DNA of 64,000 nucleotides from Candidatus Omnitrophota bacterium. GTDB taxonomy: Bacteria; Omnitrophota; Omnitrophia; Omnitrophales; Aquincolibacteriaceae. The position numbers were made by a program, and so were the translations under genes. The DNA lies in assembly GCA_018883425.1 (NCBI GenBank), contig VFQY01000001.1, positions 432-64,431 on the forward strand. Reading direction: 5' to 3'. The notes beneath the pieces were generated by a model. That model was not told the DNA's origin. It saw only the letters and a list, made by a program, of their open reading frames with translations, and did no database searches. This document shows, one piece after another, positions 7,443 to 27,789 of this stretch. How positions within the stretch are numbered: position 1 is the first letter of the stretch; every line of letters begins with the position of its first letter.

Positions 7443-8436
7443 TTCCTTCTCACAGGAAGAAACTCTTCTTTTTACACCGCTGCCTTGCGACGCTCTGCGC
7501 GTGCGGGGCAAAGACAGGGTAAGCGTTCTTCACCGCCTCCTCACTCAGGATATCCGCGCCCTGGCGCCGAACCTCGGAACGGAATCCGCACTCTTGAACG
7601 CCCGGGGCAAAGTGCTCGCCCTCATGAAAGTCGAAGCGTTTGGGGATTCTCTGCGCATTTCTGTCGAACAAGACTTCGGAAAAAAAACCCGTGAGGCACT
7701 TGAAAAACTCATCATCACAGAAGATGTCCAAATCGAAAGCGAGGAGAACCTCGTGCGGATCATCCTTACGGGCCGGCGGGCAAGAACGATACTCGAAACG
7801 GCTTTCTCGCTGTCCTTAGCCCCGCTGCGCTCCGAAAGGTTCTTTGACCTTGCCGAATTTTCGTGGGGCGGGAATGCCGCTGTCCTTGCGGAAATTCGGC
7901 CGGATTTTTTTGAAGTCCTCCTTCCGGCGTCCTCCGCCCCTTCCTTCGAAGAGCGTCTTGTCCAATCGGAACAGGCGGCGCAGCTCAGCTGCCGAGACCT
8001 CGGAGGCTGGGAAGTTTATCGAATCGAACACGGTCTGGCGAAGCTCGGCATCGACATCACGGAGGAAGACACACTTCCGGAAACCGGATTGGACGGAATT
8101 CTAGCGAGCGGCACCAAGGGCTGTTACCCCGGTCAAGAAGTTGTCGCAAGAACGAATACCTACAGCGGTCATGCAAAAAAGTTGCGGGTCCTCATGTTCA
8201 CATCGCAAAGGGTTCCCAACCCGGGCAGCCCGATCTTTTCAGGGGGCGGGGAAATCGGCCGAATTACAAGCTCCTGCTTTTCAGCACGGCAGCAGAAAAC
8301 CATGAGTTTTGCATATCTCAGGAGAGGGCACTTCGAAATCGGCAGCAAAACGTTTTTGACGATCAACGGCCTCGAGTCAGAGACGGCCGTGCTCGACCCG
8401 CGGGATTTGAGAAATCAATCGGGCCGCCAAGGCTGA
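7429..8436 (+). CDS. ygfZ: YgfZ/CAF17-like folate-binding protein (GcvT-domain, Fe-S cluster repair/tRNA modification family)
   Basis: GcvT-like aminomethyltransferase fold signatures, including a conserved C-terminal KGCYPGQE motif. Overlaps the mutY stop by 14 bp. Confidence 0.65.
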   Translation: MTQPDSFSQEETLLFTPLPCDALRVRGKDRVSVLHRLLTQDIRALAPNLGTESALLNARGKVLALMKVEAFGDSLRISVEQDFGKKTREALEKLIITEDVQIESEENLVRIILTGRRARTILETAFSLSLAPLRSERFFDLAEFSWGGNAAVLAEIRPDFFEVLLPASSAPSFEERLVQSEQAAQLSCRDLGGWEVYRIEHGLAKLGIDITEEDTLPETGLDGILASGTKGCYPGQEVVARTNTYSGHAKKLRVLMFTSQRVPNPGSPIFSGGGEIGRITSSCFSARQQKTMSFAYLRRGHFEIGSKTFLTINGLESETAVLDPRDLRNQSGRQG

Positions 8437-10856
8437 TAATCAGGCACGGCTGAACAAAGCGCTCTGAGAATCGCGTCCCGATCCGAGCCCAGGGATGCCT
8501 GCTTAAGAAGGAATTCCATCTTCTTGCGAAAATCAGCGTCTGTGACGGGGGCTTCCCAAATTTGAATCTTGGAGCATTCGGTCGGGATCAACCGCTCGCC
8601 TTTCATCTGGATCTCCTCTTCGAGTTTCTCGCCCGGCCTGAGACCGATGTAGCGGATGGGAATCTGATCCGGCGCGGCGCCCATGAGCTGCATAAGATTA
8701 CGGGCTAAATCGGCAATCCTCAGAGGGTCGCCCATGTCCAGAACGAAAATTCTTTTACCTCCGCCGATCCTGGAGGCCTCCAGGATCAAAAAAACCGCCT
8801 CCGAGATATCCATAAAATAGCGTTTGACGTCCGGATGCGTCACGGTGACCGGACCGCCCCTTTCAATCTGGGATCTAAAAAGCGGGACGACGCTGCCCCG
8901 GCTGTTGAAAACGTTTCCAAAACGGACTGCCATGAACTGGGTTTTTGCGGAGCTCATGGTCTGCAGATAAAGTTCTCCGATCCGCTTCGTGGCCCCCATC
9001 ACGCTCGAGGGACGAATCGCTTTATCCGTGGAAACCATCACGAATTTTTCCGATTCAAACTGGGCCGCCAAATCCGCAGCATTGCGGGTACCGAGCACAT
9101 TATTCAGGATACCCTCGGCAACATGATGCTCGAGAAGCGGCACATGTTTGTAGGCCGCGGCGTGATAGACGATCTCGGGACGATGACTGGAAAAAACTTT
9201 TTCAAGAGCGGCGCGGTCCCGAATATCCCGCAGATAAGGCACCACCCGAACCCCGGAAGCTGCCGATGCCGCAAGCTCCATTTCGATCTCATAAAGATTA
9301 CTTTCTGACTGATCGACCAAAACGATTTCATGCGGATGATGCTCGTGAATTCTGCGGGCAAGCTCCGACCCGATGGATCCGCCGGCCCCAGTAATGAGAA
9401 TTCGCTTCCCGGCCAGAAAGTTTTCAAGACGGCCCGCATCCGCTTTGACCAAACTTCTTCCGAGAAGGTCGGCGACATCGACTTCTTTGAGCTGGAGCGG
9501 CACGATCTGGGGGGGCAGAATGTTTGCCATGCGCGGCATGATGCGGCAGATCAGATCCAAGCGCCTCCCTTCGCTGAGAATGGTCTGGATCGTTTGTCCT
9601 GAGACCTCTGTCAGCGCAATGATCAAGGCCTCGGCTTTTTTGACCCGGGCAGCCTGCGTCAGGTGATTCAACCCCCCGAGAACTTTGATACCGTGAATGC
9701 GGACCCCCGCCTTGAGCGGGTCTTCATCCAGAATGCCGACCGGGCGGTAACCCAGGCCGGGCCTTTTCATCAACTCTCGGATCAAACGCTCGCCGGCGTC
9801 ACCCGCCCCGAGGATAAGCGTATTTTTCGACTTGTGTCCGGTGCGGGGAACGCGGAGACGCTCTGCCGTCACCTTAAAAAAAATACGTGAAAAGCCAAGC
9901 GCCAAAATCAGGATGAGCCAATCCAAAACCAGCGTGGATCGGGGCTGATAACCCGTCTGTGCCAAAAAACTTACGACAGGCAGGAGCAGAGAACCCGCCG
10001 TCACGGACTTGACGATCGCAATCAGTTCGGTCAGTCCCAGATATTGCCAAAGCGTCTGATAAAGTCCGAAAGAAACGTAACAAAACCCCCGGAGGATCAG
10101 CACCCAGGGCAGCATGGCCCAGAAAATGGCGAGCTGATCTTCGGGGACCTGATTTTCGAACCTCAGAAGAAAGGCAGCCGCGTAGGAGGCTGCGGCCAGC
10201 ACCAAATCAAACGCAAGAAAAGAAATTCTGCGCCGGCTTTCGAAGATATATCCCCATTTAAAAAAACCGGAAGTCAGAGCGGGCACGGCTCGGAAAACGA
10301 TTTTCAAATCCTTCAGGGGGTCCCGGCTTCGCACATAATCCAGATCGCACTGTATTTTTGCTTTCAGGATATGTTCCCGGTAAAAAGCTTCAATATCTCC
10401 GGTCTCGGGCAAAATTTTCTCTTCATCGCGCCAAAGAAGCTGCGATGAACCCAAAATGCCGGGCCTGGTTTCAAAAATTTCAGCGCGCTCGCTCTCCGCA
10501 TAAAGATCCATCATGCGGGGCACCTCGGGACGCGGCCCCACCAGGCTCATCTCGCCTAAAACCACATTGAAAAGCTGCGGAAGCTCATCCAGCTTTGACT
10601 TTCTTAGAACACGGCCGATCCTCGTAATCCGCACATCGTTCTTAGCCGTAATTTGTGCGCCGAGGGATTCAGCGTCTTCCACCATCGTACGGAATTTCCA
10701 AATCCAGAACACCTGACCTCTCCGCCCCACTCTCTCTTGCCGAAAAAAAACACTGCCCTCGGCATCAAGCTTGATGAGCAGCGCAGTCAAAATCATCAGC
10801 GGGGACAGAACCGCGAGAGCCGTCAGACTGACCGCAAAATCCAGAACTCTCTTCAT
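8415..10856 (-). CDS. Bifunctional fusion: N-terminal PglC/WbaP-type phosphoglycosyl transferase domain, a polytopic membrane segment, then a C-terminal PglF/WbpM/CapD-type UDP-sugar 4,6-dehydratase domain
   Basis: N-terminus MKRVLDFAVSLTALAVLSPLMILTALLIKLDAEGSVFFRQERVGRRGQVFWIWKFRTM...DELPQLFNVVLGEMSLVGPRP matches bacterial sugar transferases. After four predicted TM helices, RILITGAGGSIGSELARRI...VDQSESNLYEIEMEL...YHAAAYKHVPLLE matches Polysacc_synt_2 (CapD) dehydratases. Confidence 0.8.
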   Translation of the reverse strand: MKRVLDFAVSLTALAVLSPLMILTALLIKLDAEGSVFFRQERVGRRGQVFWIWKFRTMVEDAESLGAQITAKNDVRITRIGRVLRKSKLDELPQLFNVVLGEMSLVGPRPEVPRMMDLYAESERAEIFETRPGILGSSQLLWRDEEKILPETGDIEAFYREHILKAKIQCDLDYVRSRDPLKDLKIVFRAVPALTSGFFKWGYIFESRRRISFLAFDLVLAAASYAAAFLLRFENQVPEDQLAIFWAMLPWVLILRGFCYVSFGLYQTLWQYLGLTELIAIVKSVTAGSLLLPVVSFLAQTGYQPRSTLVLDWLILILALGFSRIFFKVTAERLRVPRTGHKSKNTLILGAGDAGERLIRELMKRPGLGYRPVGILDEDPLKAGVRIHGIKVLGGLNHLTQAARVKKAEALIIALTEVSGQTIQTILSEGRRLDLICRIMPRMANILPPQIVPLQLKEVDVADLLGRSLVKADAGRLENFLAGKRILITGAGGSIGSELARRIHEHHPHEIVLVDQSESNLYEIEMELAASAASGVRVVPYLRDIRDRAALEKVFSSHRPEIVYHAAAYKHVPLLEHHVAEGILNNVLGTRNAADLAAQFESEKFVMVSTDKAIRPSSVMGATKRIGELYLQTMSSAKTQFMAVRFGNVFNSRGSVVPLFRSQIERGGPVTVTHPDVKRYFMDISEAVFLILEASRIGGGKRIFVLDMGDPLRIADLARNLMQLMGAAPDQIPIRYIGLRPGEKLEEEIQMKGERLIPTECSKIQIWEAPVTDADFRKKMEFLLKQASLGSDRDAILRALCSAVPDYQPWRPD

Positions 10857-12088
10857 AACGGCCTCTTGAGGTCTGCGCTCTGCAGGATTTCGAGAACTTT
10901 CTGAGCGACGAAGCCGGCATCTTCATCCGACATCCCGGGATAGATGGGCAGAGAAACAATTCTTTTGAAGCAGTCTGAGGTGTTGGGAAAATCTTCGGGC
11001 TTGAGCCCGAGTTTTTCCTGATAATACGGGTGTTCACTGAGCGGAATAAAATGGACGCTTGTTCCGATACCGGCAGAGCGCATCTTCTCCATGAATTCGT
11101 CGCGGCTGATCGAAAGCTTCTCGATCTCAAGCTTGATCACAAACAAATGCCAGGCATGCGACTCAAAACTGCCGCAAGCCGGTGTACGGAGAAGTTCACA
11201 GCCCCGGAAGGCCTCCAAATAGCTCGCCGCGATCCTCCGCCGCCTCTCGAGGAAGCGTGCGCTTTTTCGAAGCTGCTGAAGACCAATGGCTGCCTGAATA
11301 TCGCTCATATTATATTTTCGGCCGAGCGTCACCACATCGTAGCGCCAAGCGCCTGGATTTTGATAGCGCTTCCAGGCGTCGCGCGTAATCCCATGAAGGG
11401 AAAGCAGCCGCGCCCGCTCGATCACCTCATCATGAGGCGTCACCAGCATTCCTCCTTCACCCGTGGAAAGTGTCTTGGTCGCGTAGAAACTAAAACAAGT
11501 AGCATCGCCGAAAACGCCGACTTTTTTTCCTTCGTAAAGCGTTGGAAAACTGTGCGCGGCATCTTCCACCAGCTTCAAACTGTAGCGCTCTGCGATCCTC
11601 TTGATGGGATTCAGCTCACACGCCTGCCCCGCAAAGTGGACAGGCAAAATAGCCCGGGTCCGGGCGGTGATTTTTTCCTCGATTCTGTCAGCCAGAATGT
11701 TGAAGCTCTCAGGACTGCAATCCACATAAACCGGTTTAGCCTTGCAATAGAGAATGACCTCAGAAGTGGCGACAAAAGTAAAAGGGACCGTAATCACCTC
11801 GTCGCCCTCTTTGATCCCAAGAGCCTCGAGCGCTACGTGCATCGCTGCCGTCCCGCTATTGACGGCCAACGCGTGTTTGACCCCGATCTCGGCCGCAAAG
11901 GCCCGCTCGAAATCCCGGACTTTCGGCCCCGTCGTAATCCAACCGCTGCGGATCGTCTCCGTCACTTCGCGGATTTCTTCTTCTCCATACTCCGGTTTAT
12001 GAAATGGAATCTTAAGCTCTTCCAAAGCTGTCCCCTTCGGCAAGAAATTTTTCAAGGATAGAAACAATGCGCTCCGCTGCGCCGCCAT
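10853..12088 (-). CDS. DegT/DnrJ/EryC1/StrS-family PLP-dependent sugar aminotransferase (ArnB/PglE-like)
   Basis: IPFHKPEYGEEEIREV...GWITTGPKVRDFERAF and the ATKTLSTGEGGMLV lysine region. Track ORF starts at 12166; nearest ATG is at 12088. 4-bp overlap with the downstream fusion gene. Confidence 0.85.
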   Translation of the reverse strand: MAAQRSALFLSLKNFLPKGTALEELKIPFHKPEYGEEEIREVTETIRSGWITTGPKVRDFERAFAAEIGVKHALAVNSGTAAMHVALEALGIKEGDEVITVPFTFVATSEVILYCKAKPVYVDCSPESFNILADRIEEKITARTRAILPVHFAGQACELNPIKRIAERYSLKLVEDAAHSFPTLYEGKKVGVFGDATCFSFYATKTLSTGEGGMLVTPHDEVIERARLLSLHGITRDAWKRYQNPGAWRYDVVTLGRKYNMSDIQAAIGLQQLRKSARFLERRRRIAASYLEAFRGCELLRTPACGSFESHAWHLFVIKLEIEKLSISRDEFMEKMRSAGIGTSVHFIPLSEHPYYQEKLGLKPEDFPNTSDCFKRIVSLPIYPGMSDEDAGFVAQKVLEILQSADLKRPL

Positions 12089-13109
12089 CCCAAAGAGGGA
12101 TAGCTGTCGGAACAGGCCGCGGCTCTTCCAGGATCCTGAAAGCCTGCTCAATGATTTTCTTTTCATGGACAGCGCAGAGCCGGTTTGTTCCCTGAGTCAA
12201 AGTCACCGGCCTTTCGGTATTCTTTCGCAGAGTGATGCAGGGGACAGCCAAAGCTGAAGTTTCCTCCTGCAGTCCTCCCGAGTCCGTCATCACGAAGGCG
12301 GATCCGGCCGTCAGCGAGAGAAAGTCGAGATACCCCAGCGGTTCCGTCAGCGTTACCCCCGACCATTCAGCTCCGAGGACTTCGATGCGCTGAAGTGTCC
12401 GCGGGTGAATGGGAAACACAACGGGGATCCGGGATGCAATTTGACAGACCGCACGGTTCAACTCAAGAAGCGTTGAGGGCCGATCGACATTCTCAGGACG
12501 ATGCAGAGTCAAAAGAGCGTAAGATTTCTCCCGAAAACCGTACCTCTCCCAAGCCCTTCTCGTCAGGGCTTTTTCGAGCCCCCGAATCAGGCTGTCGATC
12601 ATGGTATTGCCGCTATCGAATATCTTAGCCGCGTCAACACCTTCGCGGAGTAAATTTTTCCGCGCACTCGGCTCCGTGGCAAAGAGCAGCGACGAGAGGT
12701 GATCCGTAATAACCCGGTTGATTTCCTCCGGCATAGCTCGATCAAAAGATCTCAAACCTGACTCGATATGAGCAACAGGTACTTGCATTTTTGCCGCCGT
12801 CCAAGCACAGGCGGCTGTCGAATTCACATCGCCGGCAACAATCACAATTCGGGGCTCGGCTTGAGCGCAGACGGGTTCAAAGGCCTTCATGATCTCTGCT
12901 GTTTGAGATGCATGCGAACCCGAGCCGGCACCCAAATTCATATCCGGCTTCTGCAAATCGAGATCCCGAAAAAAAACATCCGACATCTCGGGGGAGTAAT
13001 GCTGTCCCGTATGAACAAGCATATGCGGAAGTTTCCTGCGGCTGATCTCGCGGACTACCGGGGCCATTTTGACAAAGTTGGGACGGGCACCGACAACCGA
13101 TAGGATCAT
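12012..13109 (-). CDS. wecB: UDP-N-acetylglucosamine 2-epimerase (non-hydrolysing)
   Basis: MILSVVGARPNFVKMAPV...HTGQHYS...SGSHASQTAEIM...VAGDVNSTAA...HIESGLRSFDRAMPEEINR. Confidence 0.9.
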   Translation of the reverse strand: MILSVVGARPNFVKMAPVVREISRRKLPHMLVHTGQHYSPEMSDVFFRDLDLQKPDMNLGAGSGSHASQTAEIMKAFEPVCAQAEPRIVIVAGDVNSTAACAWTAAKMQVPVAHIESGLRSFDRAMPEEINRVITDHLSSLLFATEPSARKNLLREGVDAAKIFDSGNTMIDSLIRGLEKALTRRAWERYGFREKSYALLTLHRPENVDRPSTLLELNRAVCQIASRIPVVFPIHPRTLQRIEVLGAEWSGVTLTEPLGYLDFLSLTAGSAFVMTDSGGLQEETSALAVPCITLRKNTERPVTLTQGTNRLCAVHEKKIIEQAFRILEEPRPVPTAIPLWDGGAAERIVSILEKFLAEGDSFGRA

Positions 13110-14622: not shown

Positions 14623-15252
14623 TCATAACTTCTTCGTCATCAAAAGACCCTGGCCGCCGTCGTCGACGGCGCCGCTCAAGACCCACCCGAGCTTTCTATG
14701 AAAAAATAACGCCTGATGATTATTCTTATCCACAGACAGGTGCATCTGTTTTTTTCCCCTGTGCCTAGCCTCTTTCGCAAGCTCACCCATAAGACGCCGG
14801 CCCAAACCTGTGCGCTGAAACTCAGGATCCACCGCAAGCACTAGGACGCCGAAACTGTCTTCGCATATAGAAAACCGAGGTTTCGTATCACGTTTCCCCA
14901 ACAGCCGTATCAAAGGGGCAAGGACCTTCCGTAAAAATCGAGCCTGAACCCATGCGCGGGGACTTACGAGCAAGCGGCAAAAAAGAAATCGTCGATTTTT
15001 TTTGACGAAACCGCTCACTGCGCCTTTAAAAGCGCCTCCCATGGCATATGCGGCTAATTTTCCGTCCGACGAAATTCCCACCGAAAAACATTCATGCGGT
15101 CCCGTCAGAAGCCAACGATAATAACGCCGCACGGCCTCAACGCCCAAGAGAGTCAGAAAGCTGTCCGGAAAAGCCCTCCTATGGAGACGCGCCGCTTTGT
15201 CCGCATCTTCACCACCCAGTCGGAATAAGGAGAGAGAGGTCTGTGGAGTCAT
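14623..15252 (-). CDS. GNAT-family N-acetyltransferase
   Basis: C-terminal LAVDPEFQRTGLGRRLMGELAKEA acetyl-CoA binding motif. ATGA overlap with the upstream CapK-like gene. Confidence 0.7.
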   Translation of the reverse strand: MTPQTSLSLFRLGGEDADKAARLHRRAFPDSFLTLLGVEAVRRYYRWLLTGPHECFSVGISSDGKLAAYAMGGAFKGAVSGFVKKNRRFLFCRLLVSPRAWVQARFLRKVLAPLIRLLGKRDTKPRFSICEDSFGVLVLAVDPEFQRTGLGRRLMGELAKEARHRGKKQMHLSVDKNNHQALFFHRKLGWVLSGAVDDGGQGLLMTKKL

Positions 15253-16658
15253 AACTTGTCTGAAGGAGCCTCATCCTTTGACATGCGGCTGATCACTGCG
15301 CGGAATTTGCCGTTCGAACCGCGGGGAATAAGCCGGCTGTATTGGATCTGGATCAGAGCCGGTCCGGTGAGGTTCTTCATGCGTTGAATCACGGCTTGTT
15401 CCTCCTCTGCAGAAAGGGGTCTCGAACAATTCATAACAACGCTGAAGACATCCAATTTTTCCTGAACAATCTGAGATTCCCGGACAGGGAGACCGGAAAA
15501 AACGGGGTTGAAATACCAGACCTTGCGGCCGTCCCTGAGGCTGAGAACATCGTGTTTGCGGCCATCGAAAGCTCGTATTGCTGGAAGCTTTCTACCGCAG
15601 GCGCAGGGCGGGGCATCTTCCGGGGCCAGACTCAGCCTATCGCCCGTTTCATAGCGAATCAACGGCATGTCGCGATGAATAAAACCTGTTGTGATCAGCT
15701 CGCCGATCTGACCTGCTGGCACATGGACCCCTTGTTCCAAGACTTCCAGATAACCCGTTTCGGGCCACAGATGCAAAACACCCTTCTCGCATTCTCCCGC
15801 GGCGGCGCCCATTTCTGACATCCCGTAGGTTTCCCGGACAGGGCATCGGAAAGCTTTTTCCATAGCCGCCTTTTGCGACGGACTGACAGGCTCTGCGTTG
15901 GTTATCACAACCTTCAGCGGAGGCACCGTCAAATTGCGCTCAAGAATTTCACAGGCTAAAAAATGCAATGCTGAGGTATAACCCAGCAGATAAACAGCCC
16001 GGCATTTGCGGACCGCTTCCAGACATTCCGGGATGAATTCAGGAAATAGGTGATAACAGGAGATATAGAGCTGATTCGAGCCGGCGTTCCAAACCCAGAA
16101 AGGAGGCTTTCGAGCAGCGGGCCCAACGATCTTCTGGGCTCCTATAATCGCCCATCGATCATGACGCGAGACTCCGTACCACCTCCTCCAGCGCGCCTCA
16201 AACAAAGCATACCACTCCCGCAAGGTATCGCGGCTTTGCCAAAGTTTGAGGGGAGTCCCTGTCGTTCCGCCGGTCGACTCAAGATAAAGTGTTTCTCTCC
16301 GGCCGGATTCTCTGAGAAAAGCCTGAGGATTTGAGCGCACCTCCTCTTTCGAAAGGGTGGGCCAGTTCTGCAAATCTCTCCAATCCGACAGATCTCCCTG
16401 TTTTCTTCTCGACTCCCACATCGCTCGGTAGTAGGGTACTTTCCTGGCCGCATCCTCCAAAAAATCGGGAAGTTTCTCATCCCTCCAAGCTTTCCATTGC
16501 GACGCATCCCAAAACTCTCTCTCAAGCGCTTCAGCAACCAACCTCTCGGTTTCCGGCCCGTAACGAAGCATCCTGAGATGGTATCCCCAAAGACTCGCGC
16601 CAAGGCATCGGAAAGTATACGGCAGCGCTTGATAAATACAGGTCACCCGAGAATTCAT
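15249..16658 (-). CDS. CapK/PaaK-like adenylate-forming enzyme (phenylacetate-CoA ligase / F390 synthetase family)
   Basis: STGGTTGTPLK P-loop-like AMP-binding motif of the PaaK family. Track ORF starts at 16721; ATG at 16658 makes an ATGA overlap with the upstream GT. Confidence 0.75.
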   Translation of the reverse strand: MNSRVTCIYQALPYTFRCLGASLWGYHLRMLRYGPETERLVAEALEREFWDASQWKAWRDEKLPDFLEDAARKVPYYRAMWESRRKQGDLSDWRDLQNWPTLSKEEVRSNPQAFLRESGRRETLYLESTGGTTGTPLKLWQSRDTLREWYALFEARWRRWYGVSRHDRWAIIGAQKIVGPAARKPPFWVWNAGSNQLYISCYHLFPEFIPECLEAVRKCRAVYLLGYTSALHFLACEILERNLTVPPLKVVITNAEPVSPSQKAAMEKAFRCPVRETYGMSEMGAAAGECEKGVLHLWPETGYLEVLEQGVHVPAGQIGELITTGFIHRDMPLIRYETGDRLSLAPEDAPPCACGRKLPAIRAFDGRKHDVLSLRDGRKVWYFNPVFSGLPVRESQIVQEKLDVFSVVMNCSRPLSAEEEQAVIQRMKNLTGPALIQIQYSRLIPRGSNGKFRAVISRMSKDEAPSDKL

Positions 16659-17746
16659 CGTTCCATACCCTCTTTCCCCGTGAGAAGAATTTTTTCCCAT
16701 TCCGGAAGAATAGAATCCCAACCGAATCGTTCAGCGTTAACTCTCGCTTCACGCGAAAACCGGACTGCAAGCTCCGGCTGACACAGCAGCTGCTTGACAG
16801 CTTCTGCAGCCCCTTTCGGATCTCCCGGGTTAAATAAAAGCGCGTTCTTTCCTGCCTCCCAGATTCTAGGGATTTCCCCCGCGTTCGAGCTAACGATGCA
16901 AAGACCGCTCGCCGCAGCTTCCATGACAGAAACGCCGAAGCTTTCAAGGGTTGTGGTATTGAGAAAAATGTCATGCTCTTGGAAGAGTTCGGGAAGTTTT
17001 GCATTAGGGATTCCTCCGCAAAGACGGACCGCCTTCTCTAGCCCAAGCTCGCGAATCGTCTGAAGAACTTTCCGGAACGTTCCATCTCCGGTGTCCGGAC
17101 CCGCCATGGTGAGCACTGCTTCAGGGAAGTCCTGGAGAATCAGCGCCAGAGTAGTCAAAGCAGTTTGAGGATCATAAATTTTATGGAAAGCTCGAACCCA
17201 ACAAAGCCGGGGACGCGGGCTCCGCCTTGAATGAAAAAAAAACTTTTTTAAATCGATGCCGTTCGGCAGGTACTCGATTTCGATCCCCGGGCAGCTCAGA
17301 GAATCCCTAAGATGGTAGGATGGACAAATTACCCGCTCTGCTTGGATTAGAAACCGTTTGAATTTTTTTTCAAAATGCCCTGCAAACGCAGGCAGATCCC
17401 CTCCATGCAGAGCTGCGACATAGGGTTTTCGAAGCACCCTCAGAAGAAAACCAGCTGCCTCGGCCCAATAAAAGGCTCTTCCGCTGTACACCAGAATGAC
17501 CGCTTTGTCATAAGCACCGCGGGAAAACACAATAGCGCACGCCATGCTAAGTGCGCGGATCCACCGAGTTTTGAAAACAGAGGCTCGGGAAACTCTCCAA
17601 CCCCGGGAGGACAGCCGCGACAAGAGATCTTCATAGGGGGATTTGATGGGCGATGCCTTGATGAAATTCCCGATAAAGAGCACCCGCTTTCCACTTTCTC
17701 GTTCCCCGAGAGTTTTGTCAGGCATATCTGCCTTCTTCCCTATCAA
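16655..17746 (-). CDS. GT4-family glycosyltransferase
   Basis: C-terminal GT-B motif FLNTTTLESFGVSVMEAAASGLCIVSSNAGEIP. Confidence 0.8.
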   Translation of the reverse strand: MIGKKADMPDKTLGERESGKRVLFIGNFIKASPIKSPYEDLLSRLSSRGWRVSRASVFKTRWIRALSMACAIVFSRGAYDKAVILVYSGRAFYWAEAAGFLLRVLRKPYVAALHGGDLPAFAGHFEKKFKRFLIQAERVICPSYHLRDSLSCPGIEIEYLPNGIDLKKFFFHSRRSPRPRLCWVRAFHKIYDPQTALTTLALILQDFPEAVLTMAGPDTGDGTFRKVLQTIRELGLEKAVRLCGGIPNAKLPELFQEHDIFLNTTTLESFGVSVMEAAASGLCIVSSNAGEIPRIWEAGKNALLFNPGDPKGAAEAVKQLLCQPELAVRFSREARVNAERFGWDSILPEWEKILLTGKEGMER

Positions 17747-18288
17747 GGTTCGTCATCGTGAACTTCCTTCACGGCCCTGGCTGAAACGCCGGCATCGAGC
17801 GTATTATCAGGACTCTTGCCGGCAGTTGCGCAGGAATTTTCGGCCAAAATGCATCCGGCCCCAATAACCGCCCCATCGAGAACAGAGGCATGAGTCCCAA
17901 CCCATGTACCGCGTCCGATACGAATGGGCCGGGCAATAACCTTCCCTTTTCGGAACGAACCGCTTTTTCGTGTGTGCCTCCCGCTCGCCACGACAGCATA
18001 AGGCGAGATCATCACGTCATCTTCGATACACACGTCATGATTTGCAAGGATCACCACCCCATAGGCAAGATAAACGTCCTGGCCCAGATGAATTCGAGAG
18101 GGTTGATAAAATGATACATACCGCCCCAAAACGAGCCGGGGCCCGAATTCAGCAGAAAAGAAAGATGCCAACCAACCCCGAAAACGCATCAAGGAAGCTC
18201 GGTCCGGCATCCATGCGCAAAGAAAAAGAACCGTACGAAGCGGCCAATCATGACGTAATTGAATCCGAAAATTACGCACCCTGTTCAC
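17743..18288 (-). CDS. Hexapeptide-repeat (left-handed beta-helix) sugar O-/N-acetyltransferase (WcaF/PglD-like)
   Basis: Repeating [LIV]G..x..[LIV] hexads: IRIGRGTWVGTHASVLDGAVIGAGCILAENS. Confidence 0.8.
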   Translation of the reverse strand: MNRVRNFRIQLRHDWPLRTVLFLCAWMPDRASLMRFRGWLASFFSAEFGPRLVLGRYVSFYQPSRIHLGQDVYLAYGVVILANHDVCIEDDVMISPYAVVASGRHTRKSGSFRKGKVIARPIRIGRGTWVGTHASVLDGAVIGAGCILAENSCATAGKSPDNTLDAGVSARAVKEVHDDEP

Positions 18289-19447
18289 CTCTCCAAAGCT
18301 GAAGATGTTCGGCCATCATCTCAACTTGACGATCAATCACAACGCTGCGCGCCAAATCGAAACCCGATCGGATCATCTGCATTCTGCTCTCAGAATCACC
18401 CATGAGGTCGAGCAGCGCCTCTGCAATATCGTGAGGCATCTGAGGGGGGACGATCCTTAAGGCCTTTGCGGCATATTCAGAAATCGACCCCACGTCTGTC
18501 GCAATCACAGGAAGCCCTTGCGAGAACGCCTCACTGATTGCACGGGGGAAACCTTCCGAAGAACGTGAAGCGGTCACAAAAAAATCCGCCTCCCGATAAT
18601 AGTTCCAAAGCTGCGGCCCAAGGGGAACATACCCGTGATAAAAAACCCGCTCTGAAACACCTGCATCTCGGGCTCTTCCAAAGACCCTCTCCAAAACCCT
18701 ATCCCGAGGATCTAGCGGGCCAACGAGATCCCATCGAACAGAAACACCTTTATTCGAGAGAAGAATCACCGCTTCGAGAACATCCTCGAGGCCTTTTGCG
18801 CTATCCATGCGGCCGGTATAGAGAAGCCTGATAACTTGCCCCCGGCAAGTGTCTTCCCGGTAAAAAAAATCGTTTTCCCCAAACGTGCTCGTCCGAACTT
18901 CTACTAATTTCGCAGCGACACCTTCCAACTGATGAAAGAGCGGACGATTGTTCACAAACGTTAAGGCCCGGCGGCAAAGTTTATTTTGCTGACTTCGGTT
19001 CCATCGGCTCCACATTGAAATCCCTAGCCGTTTTAATCCCGAACAGGCAAGGCTTGAGATCCCTTTTTCGTAATCCCCAACAAGCAGCAAGGCCAGCGGG
19101 ATGTGAGGGGCTCGGCTTGCAAGGGCTTTTAAAAGCGGGGAGGGGCCCCGGAGCAGCAATAAGTCAACCTCTCGGAGCTGCTGCCTGACCCTCCCCGCGA
19201 TTTGATGGCCGAAAAGAATCTGAAGGATTGCGCGCTGATGCTCCCCCAGGCTGCACAAGCTCACATTCCGAGCCTTGATTCTGCAATCCATCATCGCCGC
19301 CTCCCCGGACGCAGGCGAGGGCATAAAGCAGACGATCCTCTCGAAATGTCTCGCAAGCCTTTCCACAAAAACCGCCTGATAACCCGGCATATAGAGGCCG
19401 TCCTGTTTCCTCAGAGCCGGCAGATGGTAGTAATAACCCAGCTTCAT
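18272..19447 (-). CDS. GT4-family glycosyltransferase
   Basis: C-terminal EGFPRAISEAFSQGLPVIATDVGSISEY. Track ORF extends to 19642; ATG at 19447 gives an ATGA overlap with the upstream Wzy-like gene. Confidence 0.75.
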   Translation of the reverse strand: MKLGYYYHLPALRKQDGLYMPGYQAVFVERLARHFERIVCFMPSPASGEAAMMDCRIKARNVSLCSLGEHQRAILQILFGHQIAGRVRQQLREVDLLLLRGPSPLLKALASRAPHIPLALLLVGDYEKGISSLACSGLKRLGISMWSRWNRSQQNKLCRRALTFVNNRPLFHQLEGVAAKLVEVRTSTFGENDFFYREDTCRGQVIRLLYTGRMDSAKGLEDVLEAVILLSNKGVSVRWDLVGPLDPRDRVLERVFGRARDAGVSERVFYHGYVPLGPQLWNYYREADFFVTASRSSEGFPRAISEAFSQGLPVIATDVGSISEYAAKALRIVPPQMPHDIAEALLDLMGDSESRMQMIRSGFDLARSVVIDRQVEMMAEHLQLWRGEQGA

Positions 19448-20799
19448 AGGACAACCGCTCTTTCGGTTACTTGCCCCTCGGAGCTTCTCTGCGTCCTGAG
19501 AAATCGGCGGATATTTGCAGAGGTTACGATCATGCCCGCAACAAGACCGTACTTGAGCCAGGGCATTGTCCCGGTCAAACCCGCGAGCGACCAGAGATGA
19601 ATCGACATTGCGATAAAACTGGCATAAAGGGCTGCTGCCCAATAGTGCTTGCGGCGAGTCATGAAAACCGCTGCGCTATACCCCCTCCCTAAGAACAGCA
19701 CAAGAAGTGTGAGGTAGGGAAGGCCCCCAGCCAACCCTGTTTCGGCAAAAAATTGCATGTAAGCGTTATGCGAGGATTTGCTCTCAAACTTCTGCGATGA
19801 AAAATGACGAAGCGCCCTCGGCATTTCAAGCTCAACTCTCGTGAAGCGAAAGCGGCCGGGTCCACACCCCCACAAGGGATGTTTCTGCATAATCTTTATC
19901 GCTTTCTGGATCATCACCTTTCTAATTTGATACGACTTGTCCTGATCCAGGCTTTCGAGAGTCGAAAATCGCGAGACAAAACGCTCACGAACCTCCTGCG
20001 GCGCAGCTCTTGAAAAAATCCCCATCAAACCGCCAAGCAGCACAAGAAATAGAGCTGCTTTGAAGATGCCCCTTCCCTTTTTGGGATCTGCTGCGGCGCA
20101 AATCCATCCAAACACCGCAAACGATGCCGCAATAGCAATCCAGGAGGACCGGGAACCATTCATGAGAACGACAGCCAAAACAATGCCTAGCCCTAAAATC
20201 GCGAGCATCCTTTTTCGCGCTTCAGCTTGCATGAGAAATCCCGCGATGAAAACCGTATTGGCCGAAAAAATAAACGCGTACTCATTTTGAGTCATAAACT
20301 TCAATTCCATCCAAGCCCCGTAACTTCCGTATCGGATAGCCTCATAGAGCCTCACGAGTGCCAGCAGGAAAACGCTGAGCGAAAAAACTCCAGCCGTCAG
20401 CGGAAAAATCCAGGGTCGAAGAGACGCGAACAAAAGCGTCGTCACAAAAACAATCAGCCAGTAGGTGCAGCGGATGAGAACGATCATTTCGGTTTTTCCA
20501 AAGGAACTGCCGCTGCTGGATAACCCATTCACGAGAGCGCTGAAAAAGAAACCAGCACCCAGCCAGAGCGCCAGCCTGATCCATCCGCCCGCACGGATAT
20601 CTACCCGGCGGCGAGCCTTCAAAAAAACGTCCATAAAAAGGAGATAAAAAAGAATGGCTGACAGCGAGAGCCCTACAAAAGGAAGCTCAAGGAAAGGCAG
20701 CACCGTGTAGCCTGCGGCCAAAGCAAAAACTTTGGCTGACCAAGGAATTTTTTTAGACTCTCTAAAACAAGGGTCGAAACCCGGGGCAGCCCTCATCAC
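19444..20799 (-). CDS. O-antigen ligase / Wzy_C-family polytopic membrane protein (Wzy polymerase, WaaL ligase or PglL-type O-oligosaccharyltransferase; cannot distinguish)
   Basis: About 10-12 hydrophobic helices with a large loop containing ESKSSHNAYMQFFAETGL (Wzy_C-like H...N/AY motif region). Confidence 0.7.
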   Translation of the reverse strand: MMRAAPGFDPCFRESKKIPWSAKVFALAAGYTVLPFLELPFVGLSLSAILFYLLFMDVFLKARRRVDIRAGGWIRLALWLGAGFFFSALVNGLSSSGSSFGKTEMIVLIRCTYWLIVFVTTLLFASLRPWIFPLTAGVFSLSVFLLALVRLYEAIRYGSYGAWMELKFMTQNEYAFIFSANTVFIAGFLMQAEARKRMLAILGLGIVLAVVLMNGSRSSWIAIAASFAVFGWICAAADPKKGRGIFKAALFLVLLGGLMGIFSRAAPQEVRERFVSRFSTLESLDQDKSYQIRKVMIQKAIKIMQKHPLWGCGPGRFRFTRVELEMPRALRHFSSQKFESKSSHNAYMQFFAETGLAGGLPYLTLLVLFLGRGYSAAVFMTRRKHYWAAALYASFIAMSIHLWSLAGLTGTMPWLKYGLVAGMIVTSANIRRFLRTQRSSEGQVTERAVVL

Positions 20800-21914: not shown

Positions 21915-22974
21915 TCGCTCCCCCTTCGGATGCTGTCTTGAGAAGATCTTCGAGGGCGGCCAAAACCGCATCGACCGAGTAAAACTTCACAGCGCGCTCC
22001 CTCCCAGCCCGACCCATCTGAGCGAGCTTATCCCGGTTCTGCACAGCCCAGGTCAGACTCGCTCTCCATTGATCAAAAGTGCTGCAGTGAAATCCCGTTT
22101 TGTCATGATTTACAATTTCTCGATTCACGCCGACAGGCGAGACCAGCGCCGGAATTCCGCACGCCATGTATTGGACCGCTTTCAAACCGCACTTTCCTCT
22201 CTCAAAAGGACTGTCTTCGAGCGGCATCAAACCCACGTCAAAATCTTGAATGAGCTCAACCTCACTGCGTTCCGTCCAGCGGCGGTAAATGACTCTGCGC
22301 CCCCCCCAGTTGACCCTCGGATCCTTTTCAAGGACCAGCACGAATTCGGCTTCCTGATCAACCTCAGTGAGGCACTCAGAAATCTTTTTTAAAAGCGGTG
22401 CAGCCAGTGAGAAAGAACCGACTGATCCTGACCAGCCCGCACGAAAGGGTCCAGCCCGCCTCTCTTTTTGAGGCACCCAGCGCAGCGTATCCGCCACCGT
22501 GGGGATCACCGCGCATCGTCGGGGCTGAAAGGCCCGCGCAAAGGCAGCCAGCGTATCATTTCCCGCAGCGGCGCCTTGAGATAACTTCAAGATGCCTTCG
22601 ATTTTTTCCCTGCGGGGGCCGAGATGAATGGCATCGTCAAAATCAAAAACGATCTTGGCTTTCCGGGAATACATCCAAGGCTCGAGAAAACGCACTTTCA
22701 CTTCCGGAACAAGATCTCGGTTCATCATGACCACATCAAATTTTTCAAGATCACGGATGCGCCACACGGCATTGATCAGACGGCCGGCAGCACCCAGACC
22801 CGAGTGCATCCGGCGAAACACACCGTCAGGAAGTGCACTCTTCCATTGCCTTGAGGGCACCGAGGCTCGCACAGCCACCTCATGACCTCGAGCTCTCAAG
22901 GGCTCGGCAAATTGAAGGATGCGGAAGCGCGAGGCAGGGTCGGTCATCGAACCGCTGAGCATAAGAATTCTCAC
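21907..22974 (-). CDS. GT4-family glycosyltransferase
   Basis: MRILMLSGSMTDPASRFRILQFAEPLRARGHEV N-terminal GT4 domain; C-terminal GLKAVQYMACGIPALVSPVGVNREIV. Confidence 0.75.
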   Translation of the reverse strand: MRILMLSGSMTDPASRFRILQFAEPLRARGHEVAVRASVPSRQWKSALPDGVFRRMHSGLGAAGRLINAVWRIRDLEKFDVVMMNRDLVPEVKVRFLEPWMYSRKAKIVFDFDDAIHLGPRREKIEGILKLSQGAAAGNDTLAAFARAFQPRRCAVIPTVADTLRWVPQKERRAGPFRAGWSGSVGSFSLAAPLLKKISECLTEVDQEAEFVLVLEKDPRVNWGGRRVIYRRWTERSEVELIQDFDVGLMPLEDSPFERGKCGLKAVQYMACGIPALVSPVGVNREIVNHDKTGFHCSTFDQWRASLTWAVQNRDKLAQMGRAGRERAVKFYSVDAVLAALEDLLKTASEGGANV

Positions 22975-25361: not shown

Positions 25362-27200
25362 TTAGGCGTCCGCAAAACTTTGTTCAGTCCAGTAACGGTA
25401 AAAAAAATCTTTCTTACTGAGAAGCTCTCCGAAAGCGCCTTGTTCAACAACCCGGCCTTTCTCCAGGACAATAATCTTATCGGCTTTCTTTACCGTAGAA
25501 AACCGATGGGCGATAACGATCAGAGTTTTTTCTGCAGCCGCCTCTTCAATCGCCTCCTGTATTTTCTTTTCGGTAACTGAATCGAGTGCGCTCGTGGCTT
25601 CATCAAAAATCAGAATAGGCGAACCCCGAAGAATGGCTCTCGCAATGGCCAACCGCTGTCTCTCTCCTCCGGATAAACGCACGCCCTTGTCGCCGATAAC
25701 GGTCTCAAGACCCTGAGGCAGGGTTTGAATGAGATCTTCAAGCCTGGATTTCAGGATCACGTTTGCCAAATCTTTCTCAGAAACACTTTTATCGGCTCCA
25801 TAAAGGATGTTGCTTCGTATCGTGTCATTAAAAAGAAGCGTCTCTTGGCTGACGATAGCGAAACATTTTCTCAAAGCATCCAGCGTCAAAGTCCGGATAT
25901 CCCGGCCGTCCATCAGAATACTTCCCGCCTGGGGCTCATACAGCCTGAGGAGCAGATTCACAACGCTTGTTTTTCCGGCGCCTGAACTTCCGACAAGGGC
26001 GGTCATGCGGCCTTTTTCGAACTTCAGATCAATCCCGGCTAAAGCCTTTTTCCCGCCTTTGTAGGTCAACTCGACCCCCCGCAGCTCAAGGGCATGTTGA
26101 AAGTCAACGGCATCAACGGATCCCTGTACTTCACCCCATGCTGACTCTTGGGACAGGATTTCTTCAACCTCGCTCATAGGTCCCATCATTCTGGAAATAT
26201 GGGCCCGGATGTGTCCCAAGGCACCGAAATTGCTCAACGCTCTTCGAAGCGTAAAGAAAAAAATCAGCAATTTTGCAATATCCTGCTCGGCCTTCGTCTG
26301 AAGAAACAGCGCCGCCAGACACATCATGACAAGAAGGGCAAACAGCGCTCCCAGCTCGTAGATCACAGGAACAAGCTCCTGCTTCTTTTCCATGCTGAAT
26401 CGAGCCCTGGCAGATTGAAGACTGCCCGCTTCAAATCTTTTCTCCTCTGCGTCCTCAGTTCTAAAAGCTTTGACCAGCCCAAGATTCATGAGCACATTGG
26501 ATGTCCGGCTGACCCAATCTGCGTTCATCTTAGAGTAAACCTTCGAGCGTTCCTTGATCCTCCGTATCAAACCCGAAATTGTCCTCATAAAGAGCGGCGC
26601 CATGAAAAGCGTCAAAAGCGTCAGGGGCAGCGAAATATAAATCATGACGGCCAGGTAAGGAAAAATCAGCAGACCCGAACAAAGGCTTCGGAATAACGCT
26701 TTCATCGAAACAGCCGTCTCTAGTACCGCCGATGAGATCGTATTGAGGAGGGTGCCCTGGTTTAGCTCATCAAGGCGGCTTTTCGAAGAATGAATAATAC
26801 GGCTGAACAATTTAAGGCGAATGCGGTGGATCGAATCGCAGAGAATGCGGTCCGCAAGGACCAGGGATGCATATTGGAGTAAATTTTTCAACACCGCAGT
26901 AAGAAACACTGCTGACACGAGGAAAATCATCAGCACACTCTGCGGTGTCTTATCTATCGAAAAGCCGAAAAGCACCTTCGCCGCACTGAAAACACGGCTC
27001 TCGAACAGAAAGCCGAAATCGCTCTCGAGAATGCCCTTCAGGAGCGGCATGAGGAGCCCCAAAGTAACCCCCTCGAACAAGACGGCTCCCGCAGAAAGCA
27101 CACAAGCGGCGAAAAACTGATGCCCTCTCAATTCAGCAATTCTGCACAACCGCTGCAGCAAGCGCCATTCAAGAAGCGGCAGCCTGCCTCCTTTATTCAT
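25362..27200 (-). CDS. ABC exporter, fused permease plus ATPase (MsbA/PglK/Wzk-like; candidate lipid-linked oligosaccharide flippase)
   Basis: N-terminal 6-TM domain. Walker A GSSGAGKTS, signature LSGGERQRLAIARA, Walker B ILIFDEATSALD. Confidence 0.85.
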   Translation of the reverse strand: MNKGGRLPLLEWRLLQRLCRIAELRGHQFFAACVLSAGAVLFEGVTLGLLMPLLKGILESDFGFLFESRVFSAAKVLFGFSIDKTPQSVLMIFLVSAVFLTAVLKNLLQYASLVLADRILCDSIHRIRLKLFSRIIHSSKSRLDELNQGTLLNTISSAVLETAVSMKALFRSLCSGLLIFPYLAVMIYISLPLTLLTLFMAPLFMRTISGLIRRIKERSKVYSKMNADWVSRTSNVLMNLGLVKAFRTEDAEEKRFEAGSLQSARARFSMEKKQELVPVIYELGALFALLVMMCLAALFLQTKAEQDIAKLLIFFFTLRRALSNFGALGHIRAHISRMMGPMSEVEEILSQESAWGEVQGSVDAVDFQHALELRGVELTYKGGKKALAGIDLKFEKGRMTALVGSSGAGKTSVVNLLLRLYEPQAGSILMDGRDIRTLTLDALRKCFAIVSQETLLFNDTIRSNILYGADKSVSEKDLANVILKSRLEDLIQTLPQGLETVIGDKGVRLSGGERQRLAIARAILRGSPILIFDEATSALDSVTEKKIQEAIEEAAAEKTLIVIAHRFSTVKKADKIIVLEKGRVVEQGAFGELLSKKDFFYRYWTEQSFADA

Positions 27201-27316: not shown

Positions 27317-27523
27317 CTATTTGCTCATCCGGCTCATGAGCCAGGCATCCAGGACATCTTTCTTGAACCGCCATTGACCGCCGATTTTTGTCGCAGGGAT
27401 CTCTTGTTTTTTGAGGAGTCGGTAGATTGTGACCAGATGAAACCCTAAATACTTCGCAGCTTCCTTTGGAGTCATGATTTGAGTTCTCTCGGGACGTTTC
27501 GGTGTATTCTTAGATTCTTCCAT
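27317..27523 (-). CDS. Small HTH DNA-binding protein, excisionase-family (HTH_17/MerR-like). Copy A, first gene of the main glycan operon
   Basis: MTPKEAAKYLGFHLVTIYRLLKKQEIPATKIGGQWRFKKDVLDAWL matches the excisionase-family HTH. Its paralog is at 30425-30682. Confidence 0.75.
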   Translation of the reverse strand: MEESKNTPKRPERTQIMTPKEAAKYLGFHLVTIYRLLKKQEIPATKIGGQWRFKKDVLDAWLMSRMSK

Positions 27524-27713: not shown

Positions 27714-27789
27714 ACGGCCTTTGTTTTTATCACCTAAGCATCCTCGATCAGTTTTCTACCTAGATTCTGGAACCAAAAGGAGTGTTGAA

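What the first reader, a model, noticed from the sequence alone, without database searches (positions are those of the whole stretch)
19444..20799. Wzy_C-family membrane protein of ambiguous role (polymerase, WaaL ligase or PglL-like O-oligosaccharyltransferase) as the only candidate transferase of the pathway
With an ABC flippase rather than Wzx, a Wzy polymerase is not expected. So this 451-aa protein is more likely a ligase (WaaL) or a protein O-OTase. These classes share the Wzy_C domain and cannot be separated by eye. Which one it is determines whether the locus modifies LPS or proteins.
Basis: partly seen in the sequence, partly recalled or inferred. Interest (0 to 1): 0.5.

Follow-up and report, generated by a model that had tools for sequence, protein, structure and literature searches.

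The report
WaaL-fold glycan ligase, acceptor unresolved
The gene is real and encodes a membrane enzyme that most likely moves a finished sugar chain from its lipid carrier onto a final acceptor; whether that acceptor is lipopolysaccharide, another lipid or a protein cannot be settled from sequence.

The parts
19444..20799 (-). Wzy_C-family gene, 451 aa (450 aa from the ATG at 20796). Twelve transmembrane helices, with N- and C-termini in the cytoplasm.
   Evidence: ORF. Identity to P0001. AlphaFold2 model pLDDT 88.2, pTM 0.90. Hydropathy and positive-inside pattern.
19714..20190 (-). Wzy_C domain (residues 204-362). It spans TM7-TM9, the large periplasmic loop (residues 266-345) and the start of TM10.
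   Evidence: Pfam PF04932, E 1.1e-18. Helices.
20149..20151 (-). Codon for R217 in the motif NGSRSSW. Equivalent to CmWaaL R191, EcWaaL R215 and NmPglL R224.
   Evidence: Invariant in 28 family members. Aligned to R191 of 7tpg. Residue equivalences from PMC3643930.
19921..19923 (-). Codon for R293. Equivalent to CmWaaL R265, EcWaaL R288 and NmPglL R298.
   Evidence: Invariant. Aligned to CmWaaL and to EcWaaL R288.
19768..19770 (-). Codon for H344, the first residue of H-N-x9-G-xx-G. Equivalent to EcWaaL H338 and NmPglL H349, the essential histidine.
   Evidence: Invariant. Aligned. Essentiality from PMC2932511 and PMC3643930.
20796..21971 (-). GT2-like glycosyltransferase (391 aa), a cassette member. 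Its stop overlaps the Wzy_C start.
   Evidence: No Pfam hit in the window copy. Orthologues carry Glycos_transf_2. Conserved next to Wzy_C in many loci.
18272..19447 (-). GT4 glycosyltransferase, a cassette member. The true start is the ATG at 19447, which overlaps the Wzy_C stop.
   Evidence: Glycos_transf_1. Overlap read. Found immediately downstream of Wzy_C, at 280-330 bits, in nearly all loci.
17743..18288 (-). Hexapeptide acetyltransferase (WcaF-like), an optional cassette member.
16655..17746 (-). GT1/GT4 glycosyltransferase, a cassette member. It is fused to the preceding GT4 in L004/L008 and L025.
15249..16721 (-). CapK/PaaK-like adenylate-forming enzyme, a cassette member.
   Evidence: AMP-binding domain. 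Orthologues carry CapK_C. Also.
25362..27200 (-). Half-size ABC exporter (TMD plus NBD) of the HepA/MsbA/PglK type. It is the presumed exporter or flippase of the Und-PP-glycan.
   Evidence: Syntenic in L001, L022 and L025.
8415..10856 (-). Fusion of a monotopic phosphoglycosyl transferase (Bac_transf, PglC-like) with a PglF-like 4,6-dehydratase (Polysacc_synt_2). This is the initiating enzyme.
10853..12166 (-). DegT/PglE/PseC-type aminotransferase, which supplies a 4-amino-4,6-dideoxy-HexNAc, probably the reducing-end sugar.

Best explanation
The protein is the terminal, periplasm-facing en bloc glycan ligase of an ABC-exporter-dependent pathway. The pathway inferred from the gene content runs as follows. 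The PglC-PglF fusion and the aminotransferases start an undecaprenyl-pyrophosphate-linked glycan on a 2-acetamido-4-amino-trideoxyhexose. Five or six cytoplasmic glycosyltransferases, an acetyltransferase and a CapK-like enzyme complete it. The HepA/MsbA/PglK-like ABC protein moves it across the inner membrane. The Wzy_C protein then binds the Und-PP head group through R217 and R293. With H344 it transfers the whole glycan from Und-PP to an acceptor hydroxyl and releases Und-PP. Shown here: the WaaL fold, the topology, the invariant triad, the operon position, and the association of the family with ABC exporters. Inferred: the chemistry and the acceptor. My best single guess is a membrane lipid acceptor, which in this outer-membrane-bearing Omnitrophota bacterium would be lipid A-core, that is WaaL function. 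The monoderm Anaerolineae relatives would then use a glycolipid, as TacL does. I give 'ligase rather than polymerase' about 0.8, and the specific lipid-acceptor reading 0.45.
Against: Full-length relatives at 36-40% identity, in the same cassette, occur in Anaerolineaceae, including cultured Levilinea saccharolytica. That group lacks lpxB, lpxC, kdsA and bamA (PMC5826079; PMC5481317). Lipid A-core therefore cannot be the acceptor for the family as a whole. The profile matches a solved O-oligosaccharyltransferase (9rmk) nearly as well as WaaL. A PglC/PglE/PglF-type start and a PglK-like exporter are typical of protein glycosylation systems. waaL genes usually lie with core-oligosaccharide genes, and none is present in the window. 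The tight cross-phylum linkage of the membrane protein to specific GTs is also what a repeat-unit-specific polymerase would show.
Confidence: 0.45

Rival explanations
1. The protein is a protein O-oligosaccharyltransferase. It would transfer the ABC-exported Und-PP-glycan en bloc to Ser, Thr or Tyr of secreted or surface proteins, as WsaB/WsfB do for S-layer proteins in Geobacillus and Paenibacillus, or PglL in Neisseria.
For: The family occurs in LPS-free Anaerolineae alongside Wzm/Wzt. That combination of PGT, Wzm/Wzt and a Wzy_C O-OTase is exactly the S-layer glycan pathway (PMC2943079). Those loci also carry Asn-synthase and glycerophosphotransferase homologues, as the P. alvei slg locus does. 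The profile hits the solved O-OTase 9rmk at E 9.1e-8. The window locus has a bacillosamine-type start and a PglK-like exporter. An OTase with a relaxed protein acceptor would explain how the cassette functions in three phyla. The family has Q171/N172 46 and 45 residues before R217, similar to PglL Q178/N180 before R224, and a P-xx-G-x-G motif.
Against: There is no PglL_A (PF15864) or Wzy_C_2 hit even at E<=1. The protein lacks the C-terminal periplasmic or TPR domain found in PglL, PglS and WsfB, and no TPR partner lies in the cluster. No pilin or S-layer gene is adjacent. P-xx-G-x-G is also present in CmWaaL, so it does not discriminate.
Confidence: 0.3
2. The protein is a Wzy-type polymerase. 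The conserved cassette would build a conserved repeat unit, an exporter would flip it, and this protein would polymerise it on Und-PP. A separate enzyme encoded elsewhere would do the final transfer.
For: The gene is embedded among, and overlaps, specific GT genes, and it travels with them across three phyla. This is how wzy genes behave, and a self-contained unit would be easy to transfer horizontally. PF04932 and the HX10G motif are reported for polymerases as well as ligases (PMC2932511). Weak Wzx-like proteins occur in L016 (Polysacc_synt 23.7 bits, below cut-off) and L004/L008.
Against: No Wzz/PCP or OPX protein appears in any of the eight loci with precomputed Pfam tables. E. coli Wzz, Wzc and Wza queries found nothing in the other loci, though that single-sequence search is insensitive. 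Wzm/Wzt with Wzt_C export finished, capped polymers. Fused bifunctional GTs point to cytoplasmic polymerisation. The protein shows no similarity to E. coli WbbH or WzyE, and TIGR04370 scores 12.8 bits against a cut-off of 40. The loci would also lack any terminal transferase.
Confidence: 0.15
3. The protein is a ligase for another acceptor. It could join the cassette glycan to a second glycan or polymer, or to peptidoglycan. Alternatively it could be an IctB-like Wzy_C protein of unknown role.
For: Several relatives' loci carry genes suggesting a second polymer or extra decoration: a glycerophosphotransferase, PMT_2-like GT-C proteins, and Kdo or NulO synthesis genes. The best NCBIfam hit is IctB at 44.5 bits.
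Against: The IctB score is far below its cut-off of 366. No precedent for a glycan-to-glycan Wzy_C ligase was found here. The window locus has only one exporter and one initiating enzyme.
Confidence: 0.1

Closest known systems
WaaL O-antigen ligase (C. metallidurans 7TPG/7TPJ; E. coli K-12 WaaL)
   Different: About 15% identity. The gene lies inside the glycan cluster rather than with core-oligosaccharide genes. The closest relatives live in LPS-free Anaerolineae, so the family is not tied to lipid A-core.
TacL, the lipoteichoic acid ligase of Streptococcus pneumoniae
   Same: A compact Wzy_C protein in a monoderm that moves an Und-PP-linked polymer onto a membrane glycolipid. It shows that WaaL-like ligases work without LPS.
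   Different: The pneumococcal teichoic acid pathway is not a Wzm/Wzt pathway.
WsaB/WsfB S-layer O-oligosaccharyltransferases (Geobacillus stearothermophilus, Paenibacillus alvei)
   Same: A Wzy_C protein in one cluster with a Bac_transf initiating enzyme and a Wzm/Wzt ABC exporter in a monoderm, doing the terminal en bloc transfer.
   Different: WsfB has a C-terminal TPR and WsaB has a TPR neighbour. There is no TPR and no S-layer gene here.
PglL / PglS / TfpO / TfpM O-oligosaccharyltransferases
   Same: Wzy_C domain and the R/R/H triad. The profile hit to the solved OTase 9rmk (E 9.1e-8) is nearly as good as the hit to WaaL. Neisseria PglL also uses a bacillosamine-type reducing end (own knowledge).
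   Different: No PglL_A motif and no C-terminal periplasmic domain (PglL and PglS are 520-620 aa). No adjacent pilin, which TfpO and TfpM have.
Helicobacter pylori Wzk + WaaL, and Campylobacter jejuni PglK pathways (from my own knowledge, not tested here)
   Same: A half-size ABC flippase replaces Wzx for an Und-PP-glycan, and en bloc transfer follows.
   Different: The ABC protein here scores closer to HepA and MsbA (448 and 396 bits) than to PglK (238 bits). No PglB is present.
Wzy O-antigen / EPS polymerases
   Same: The same GT-C(B) superfamily. The gene is embedded among the GT genes of the cluster.
   Different: No Wzx or Wzz partners. The association is with ABC exporters. There is no detectable similarity to E. 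coli WbbH or WzyE.

Membership tests
Wzy_C superfamily (PF04932) | Pfam score above the gathering threshold | tested here: met
   67.8 bits against a cut-off of 31.7, residues 204-362.
WaaL O-antigen ligase | 12-TM WaaL fold with a large periplasmic loop between TM9 and TM10 | tested here: met
WaaL O-antigen ligase | Conserved periplasmic Arg, Arg and His (Ec R215, R288, H338) | tested here: met
   R217, R293 and H344 are invariant and aligned. The triad is shared with PglL, so it does not discriminate.
WaaL O-antigen ligase | The acceptor lipid A-core exists in the host and in the hosts of close relatives | tested here: not met
   The host probably has an outer membrane and LPS (Omp85; phylum-level report). 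Relatives at 36-40% identity are in Anaerolineae, which lack lpx, kds and bamA genes.
WaaL O-antigen ligase | Transfer of O-antigen to lipid A-core | not testable with these tools
   Needs an LPS profile of a mutant or of a heterologous host.
PglL / PglS general O-OTase | PglL_A motif (PF15864), with Wzy_C_2 | tested here: not met
   Only Wzy_C was reported at E<=1. The motif is defined in PMC3643930.
PglL / PglS general O-OTase | Length 520-620 aa with a C-terminal periplasmic domain | tested here: not met
   451 aa. The model ends with TM12 and a cytoplasmic helix. The whole subfamily is about 400-517 aa. Criteria.
TfpO / TfpM pilin O-OTase | Gene adjacent to its cognate pilin gene | tested here: not met
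   No prepilin motif anywhere in the window. The neighbours are GTs.
WsaB / WsfB S-layer O-OTase | Clustered with an initiating PGT and an ABC exporter | tested here: met
   Window. Relatives with Wzm/Wzt.
WsaB / WsfB S-layer O-OTase | C-terminal TPR or a TPR partner, and an S-layer protein gene in the locus | tested here: not met
   No TPR or S-layer gene in 8-31 kb. The only TPR protein is at 46443-47102.
TacL-type glycolipid ligase | Compact Wzy_C ligase acting in an LPS-free organism | tested here: inconclusive
   The Anaerolineae relatives fit by size and domain. No sequence comparison or acceptor data were available.
Wzy polymerase | Works with a Wzx flippase and a Wzz/PCP co-polymerase | tested here: not met
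   None in the window. None in the eight relatives' loci with Pfam tables. Only weak Wzx-like hits in L016 and L004/L008. The rest of the genome was not examined.
Wzy polymerase | Similarity to characterised polymerases or to polymerase models | tested here: not met
   hhalign to WbbH 0.4% and to WzyE 1.3%. TIGR04370 scores 12.8 bits against a cut-off of 40.
IctB family (TIGR00947) | NCBIfam score above the cut-off | tested here: not met
   44.5 bits against a cut-off of 366.4.

The most novel reading that the evidence does not exclude
The subfamily (about 175 clusters at 50% identity) could be a previously unrecognised class of en bloc glycan transferase. It would travel between phyla inside a portable cassette (GT2-like / Wzy_C / GT4 / AcT / GT1 / CapK-like). 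It would attach ABC-exported glycans to an acceptor that is not lipid A-core: a protein, which would make it a further class of compact, pilin-independent O-oligosaccharyltransferase, or a membrane glycolipid. That acceptor would be shared by monoderm Chloroflexota and by diderm Omnitrophota and Acidobacteriota.
Probability: 0.3. Interest if true: 0.6.

Novelty: new member of a known kind. Interest (0 to 1): 0.4.

Why it matters
The class of this enzyme decides what the whole 22-kb locus decorates: LPS, another lipid or proteins. The organism belongs to an uncultured, largely nanobacterial phylum whose cell surface is essentially unknown. The comparative result is a tightly conserved cassette shared with LPS-free Anaerolineae and nearly always paired with ABC exporters. 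It offers a testable handle, because Levilinea saccharolytica is cultured and carries the cassette. If the acceptor proves to be a protein, the enzyme would be a compact O-OTase of possible use in glycoengineering. If it is WaaL or TacL-like, the finding is ordinary surface-glycan biology.

Tried and rejected
1. I first meant to use the HX10G motif (H344...G355) as a ligase-versus-polymerase discriminator, from memory. Islam et al. 2010 describe it in both polymerases and ligases, so I dropped it.
2. P-xx-G-x-G (P308, G311, G313) is listed as PglL-specific by Schulz 2013, but CmWaaL has it too. It does not discriminate.
3. A single-sequence search of the PDB found nothing. Only the family profile did.
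4. A second homologous-protein search with the alignment returned the same 30 proteins and added nothing.
5. The solved O-OTase 9rmk is in neither fold library, so no structural comparison with an O-OTase was possible. AFDB50 was unavailable.
6. The WaaL structure paper (Ashraf 2022) is not held, so lipid-A-site residues could not be checked.
7. The literature search on HepA was swamped by unrelated 'hepa...' words.
8. The unknown 414-aa protein has no Pfam, NCBIfam or PDB sequence match.
9. Polytopic membrane proteins in relatives' loci were checked as possible Wzx. Most are PMT_2-like or have no family.
10. An exosortase/PEP-CTERM type of locus was considered because of the TIGR04073-like neighbour and weak stp1/2/3 and EpsB_2 hits. 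No exosortase, no TIGR03097 hit and no PCP/OPX are present, so I rejected membership.
Full report
**Observation.** The window has an ORF at exactly 19444..20799 on the minus strand, 451 aa from a GTG start. It is 100% identical to a 450-aa GenBank protein named 'MAG: O-antigen ligase family protein [Candidatus Omnitrophica bacterium]'. That protein starts at the ATG one codon downstream. Pfam assigns Wzy_C (PF04932) to residues 204-362 with E 1.1e-18. NCBIfam gives no hit above any cut-off: IctB 44.5 bits against 366, and the repeat-unit polymerase model TIGR04370 12.8 bits against 40. The start codon overlaps the stop of the upstream gene (GTGA), and the stop overlaps the start of the downstream gene (ATGA). 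The three genes therefore belong to one tightly packed operon.

**Surroundings.** All genes from 8415 to 30315 lie on the minus strand and form one glycan cluster. In order of transcription they are:
- a DegT aminotransferase and a TylF-like methyltransferase;
- a half-size ABC exporter (25362-27200) and an SDR epimerase/dehydratase;
- a 414-aa protein with no family, a GT1 and a GT2-like protein;
- the Wzy_C protein, a GT4, a WcaF-like hexapeptide acetyltransferase and a GT1;
- a CapK/PaaK-like adenylating enzyme, a GNAT, a WcaI-like GT4 and a UDP-GlcNAc 2-epimerase;
- a PglE/PseC-like aminotransferase, and a fusion of a PglC-like phosphoglycosyl transferase with a PglF-like dehydratase.

The ABC protein scores best against HepA-family (448 bits), MsbA (396) and PglK (238), all below their cut-offs. 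The rest of the window is housekeeping and includes an Omp85 protein. No Wzx, Wzz, Wza/Wzc, PglB/STT3 or LCP protein is present. A hydropathy scan finds only the PGT fusion, the ABC exporter and the Wzy_C protein as multi-helix membrane proteins of 400 aa or more.

- R217 with Cm R191, Ec R215 and Nm R224;
- R293 with Cm R265, Ec R288 and Nm R298;
- H344 with Ec H338 and Nm H349.

All three lie on the periplasmic side. The catalytic apparatus of an Und-PP-glycan transferase is therefore intact.

**WaaL versus O-OTase by sequence.** The family profile hits the solved WaaL at E 5.7e-9 and a solved 610-aa 'oligosaccharyltransferase' (9rmk) at E 9.1e-8. This is a tie. hhalign gives 43% probability to E. 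coli WaaL, 0.4% to the O16 polymerase WbbH and 1.3% to the ECA polymerase WzyE. The PglL-specific PglL_A model (PF15864) does not hit. The protein also lacks the large C-terminal periplasmic domain of PglL and PglS. The compact O-OTases TfpO and TfpM sit next to their pilin gene, and no prepilin motif exists in the window. Two motifs I considered do not discriminate. HX10G occurs in both polymerases and ligases, and P-xx-G-x-G is also present in CmWaaL.

**Relatives and their context.** An exhaustive profile search of 1.84 billion representatives found 34,278 Wzy_C-type proteins at E<=1e-3 but only 175 at E<=1e-30. All of the listed top hits are 517 aa or shorter. This is a small, discrete subfamily. 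I obtained DNA for about 40 distinct loci. Organism names are available only for the GTDB set: mostly Anaerolineaceae and Anaerolineae (including cultured Levilinea saccharolytica KIBI-1), one Ardenticatenia, and Bryobacterales of the Acidobacteriota. I annotated the loci with phmmer using the window proteins as queries.

The Wzy_C gene is almost always followed by orthologues of the same GT4 (280-330 bits), the same GT1 (270-300 bits) and the same CapK-like enzyme (215-630 bits). An acetyltransferase often lies between them, and the GT2-like protein often lies in front. The two GTs are fused into one protein of about 734-750 aa in L004/L008 and L025.

Around this core the initiating enzyme varies. 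It is PglC-like with PglD/PglE in some loci and WecA-like in L003 and L023. The exporter also varies. It is a HepA-like ABC protein in the four Omnitrophota-type loci (window, L001, L022, L025). It is Wzm/Wzt, commonly with the cap-binding Wzt_C domain, in eleven others (L003, L004, L006, L010, L011, L013, L023, L028, L029/31, L033, L045). In all of these except L003, where Wzm/Wzt is divergently oriented, the exporter is upstream on the same strand.

Eight loci show no exporter within the available flank. None of the eight loci with precomputed Pfam tables has Wzz, a PCP or an OPX protein. Only L016 (Polysacc_synt 23.7 bits, below cut-off) and L004/L008 (a 348-aa Polysacc_synt on the other strand) have anything Wzx-like. 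L023 places Kdo synthesis genes and a polysialyltransferase-like gene between Wzm/Wzt and the cassette. I read that as a possible chain-terminating cap of the kind Wzt_C domains recognise.

**What this implies.** Glycans exported by Wzm/Wzt are finished in the cytoplasm and need a terminal transferase, not a periplasmic polymerase. In every locus the Wzy_C protein is the only candidate for that step. I therefore put 'en bloc ligase' at about 0.8 and 'polymerase' at about 0.15. The polymerase reading is not zero. A membrane protein that stays glued to specific GTs across three phyla is what a repeat-unit-specific Wzy would look like, and Wzx or Wzz could lie outside the flanks I could see.

**The acceptor.** Chloroflexota, including Anaerolineae, lack lpxB, lpxC, kdsA and bamA and are monoderm. 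The Anaerolineae members cannot therefore be lipid A-core ligases. Two precedents exist for Wzy_C ligases without LPS. One is the S-layer O-OTases WsaB and WsfB, which work with a Bac_transf initiator and Wzm/Wzt. The other is TacL, which puts teichoic acid chains on a glycolipid.

The Omnitrophota host probably has an outer membrane and LPS, so WaaL function is possible there. The compact WaaL/TacL-like architecture, the slightly better match to WaaL, and the absence of every O-OTase accessory feature (PglL_A, C-terminal domain, TPR, pilin neighbour) make me favour a lipid acceptor (0.45) over a protein acceptor (0.30). The bacillosamine-type start, the PglK-like exporter and the cross-phylum portability pull the other way. 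Sequence and structure prediction cannot settle this.

**Comparison with known systems and novelty.** The protein is a new member of the WaaL-fold Wzy_C ligase kind. It fails membership tests for PglL/PglS, TfpO/TfpM, IctB and the characterised polymerases. It passes the fold and catalytic tests for WaaL, but the family fails the test that the acceptor be present in all hosts. The conserved portable cassette and its presence in LPS-free bacteria are the only unusual aspects. They define a testable subfamily and do not amount to a new mechanism.

**Verdict.** Interest is moderate (0.4). The gene is an ordinary type of enzyme whose acceptor is unknown. A cultured relative (Levilinea saccharolytica) and a standard glyco-competent E. 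coli assay would resolve it.

Noticed in passing
window 27721-28353 (+): A secreted protein of about 185-210 aa is encoded on the opposite strand inside the glycan cluster. It has a signal peptide and a C-terminal Pro/Gln/Val-rich tail with repeated PMDYVKKG. It is conserved at the same position in L001 (91% identity) and L022 (59%). It scores 46.8 bits against TIGR04073 'exosortase system-associated protein' (cut-off 50). It could be an acceptor or an accessory protein.
   Followed up: partly
window 27317-27523 (-) and 30425-30682 (-): Two paralogous small excisionase/HTH_17-type DNA-binding genes form a 165-nt direct repeat at 84% identity. Each sits at the head of a sub-operon: one before the ABC exporter and one before DegT-TylF. 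The same arrangement occurs in L001. L022 adds a NusG paralogue at L022 1622-2179. They are probably dedicated regulators or antiterminators of the cluster.
   Followed up: partly
window 8415-10856 (-): One 813-aa protein fuses a PglC-like monotopic phosphoglycosyl transferase (residues 2-193) with a PglF-like UDP-GlcNAc 4,6-dehydratase (CoA_binding_3 plus Polysacc_synt_2). It is conserved in L001 and L025.
   Followed up: no
window 22971-24215 (-): A soluble 414-aa protein has no Pfam, NCBIfam or PDB sequence match. It is conserved at 240-480 bits in the same position in L001, L005, L016, L022 and L025. Its role in the pathway is unknown.
   Followed up: partly
L004 11341-13545, L025 11329-13578: The two cassette glycosyltransferases that follow Wzy_C are fused into one protein of about 734-750 aa. 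This resembles the bifunctional cytoplasmic co-polymerases of ABC-transporter-dependent pathways.
   Followed up: no
L023 1298-7802: Wzm/Wzt are followed by a complete CMP-Kdo supply set (kdsB-, kpsF/kdsD-, kdsA- and kdsC-like genes) and a polysialyltransferase-like gene, directly upstream of the cassette. This could provide a Kdo-type chain-terminating cap.
   Followed up: no
L003 2-1018, L010 17821-19233, L045 17199-18509, L046 18017-19327: Weak PMT_2-like (ArnT/PMT-type GT-C) membrane proteins recur in relatives' loci. They may decorate the exported glycan from a polyprenyl-phosphate sugar.
   Followed up: partly
L004 1773-3440, L029/L031 1526-3232: A 556-569-aa membrane protein with 9-11 predicted helices and no Pfam family lies immediately upstream of the Wzt gene, between Wzm and Wzt in L004.
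   Followed up: no
window 52056-55041 (-): A 454-aa Omp85-domain ORF (53677-55041) overlaps a 598-aa ORF with no family (52056-53852). This may be one BamA-like gene with a different start or frame. It is evidence that the organism has an outer membrane.
   Followed up: no
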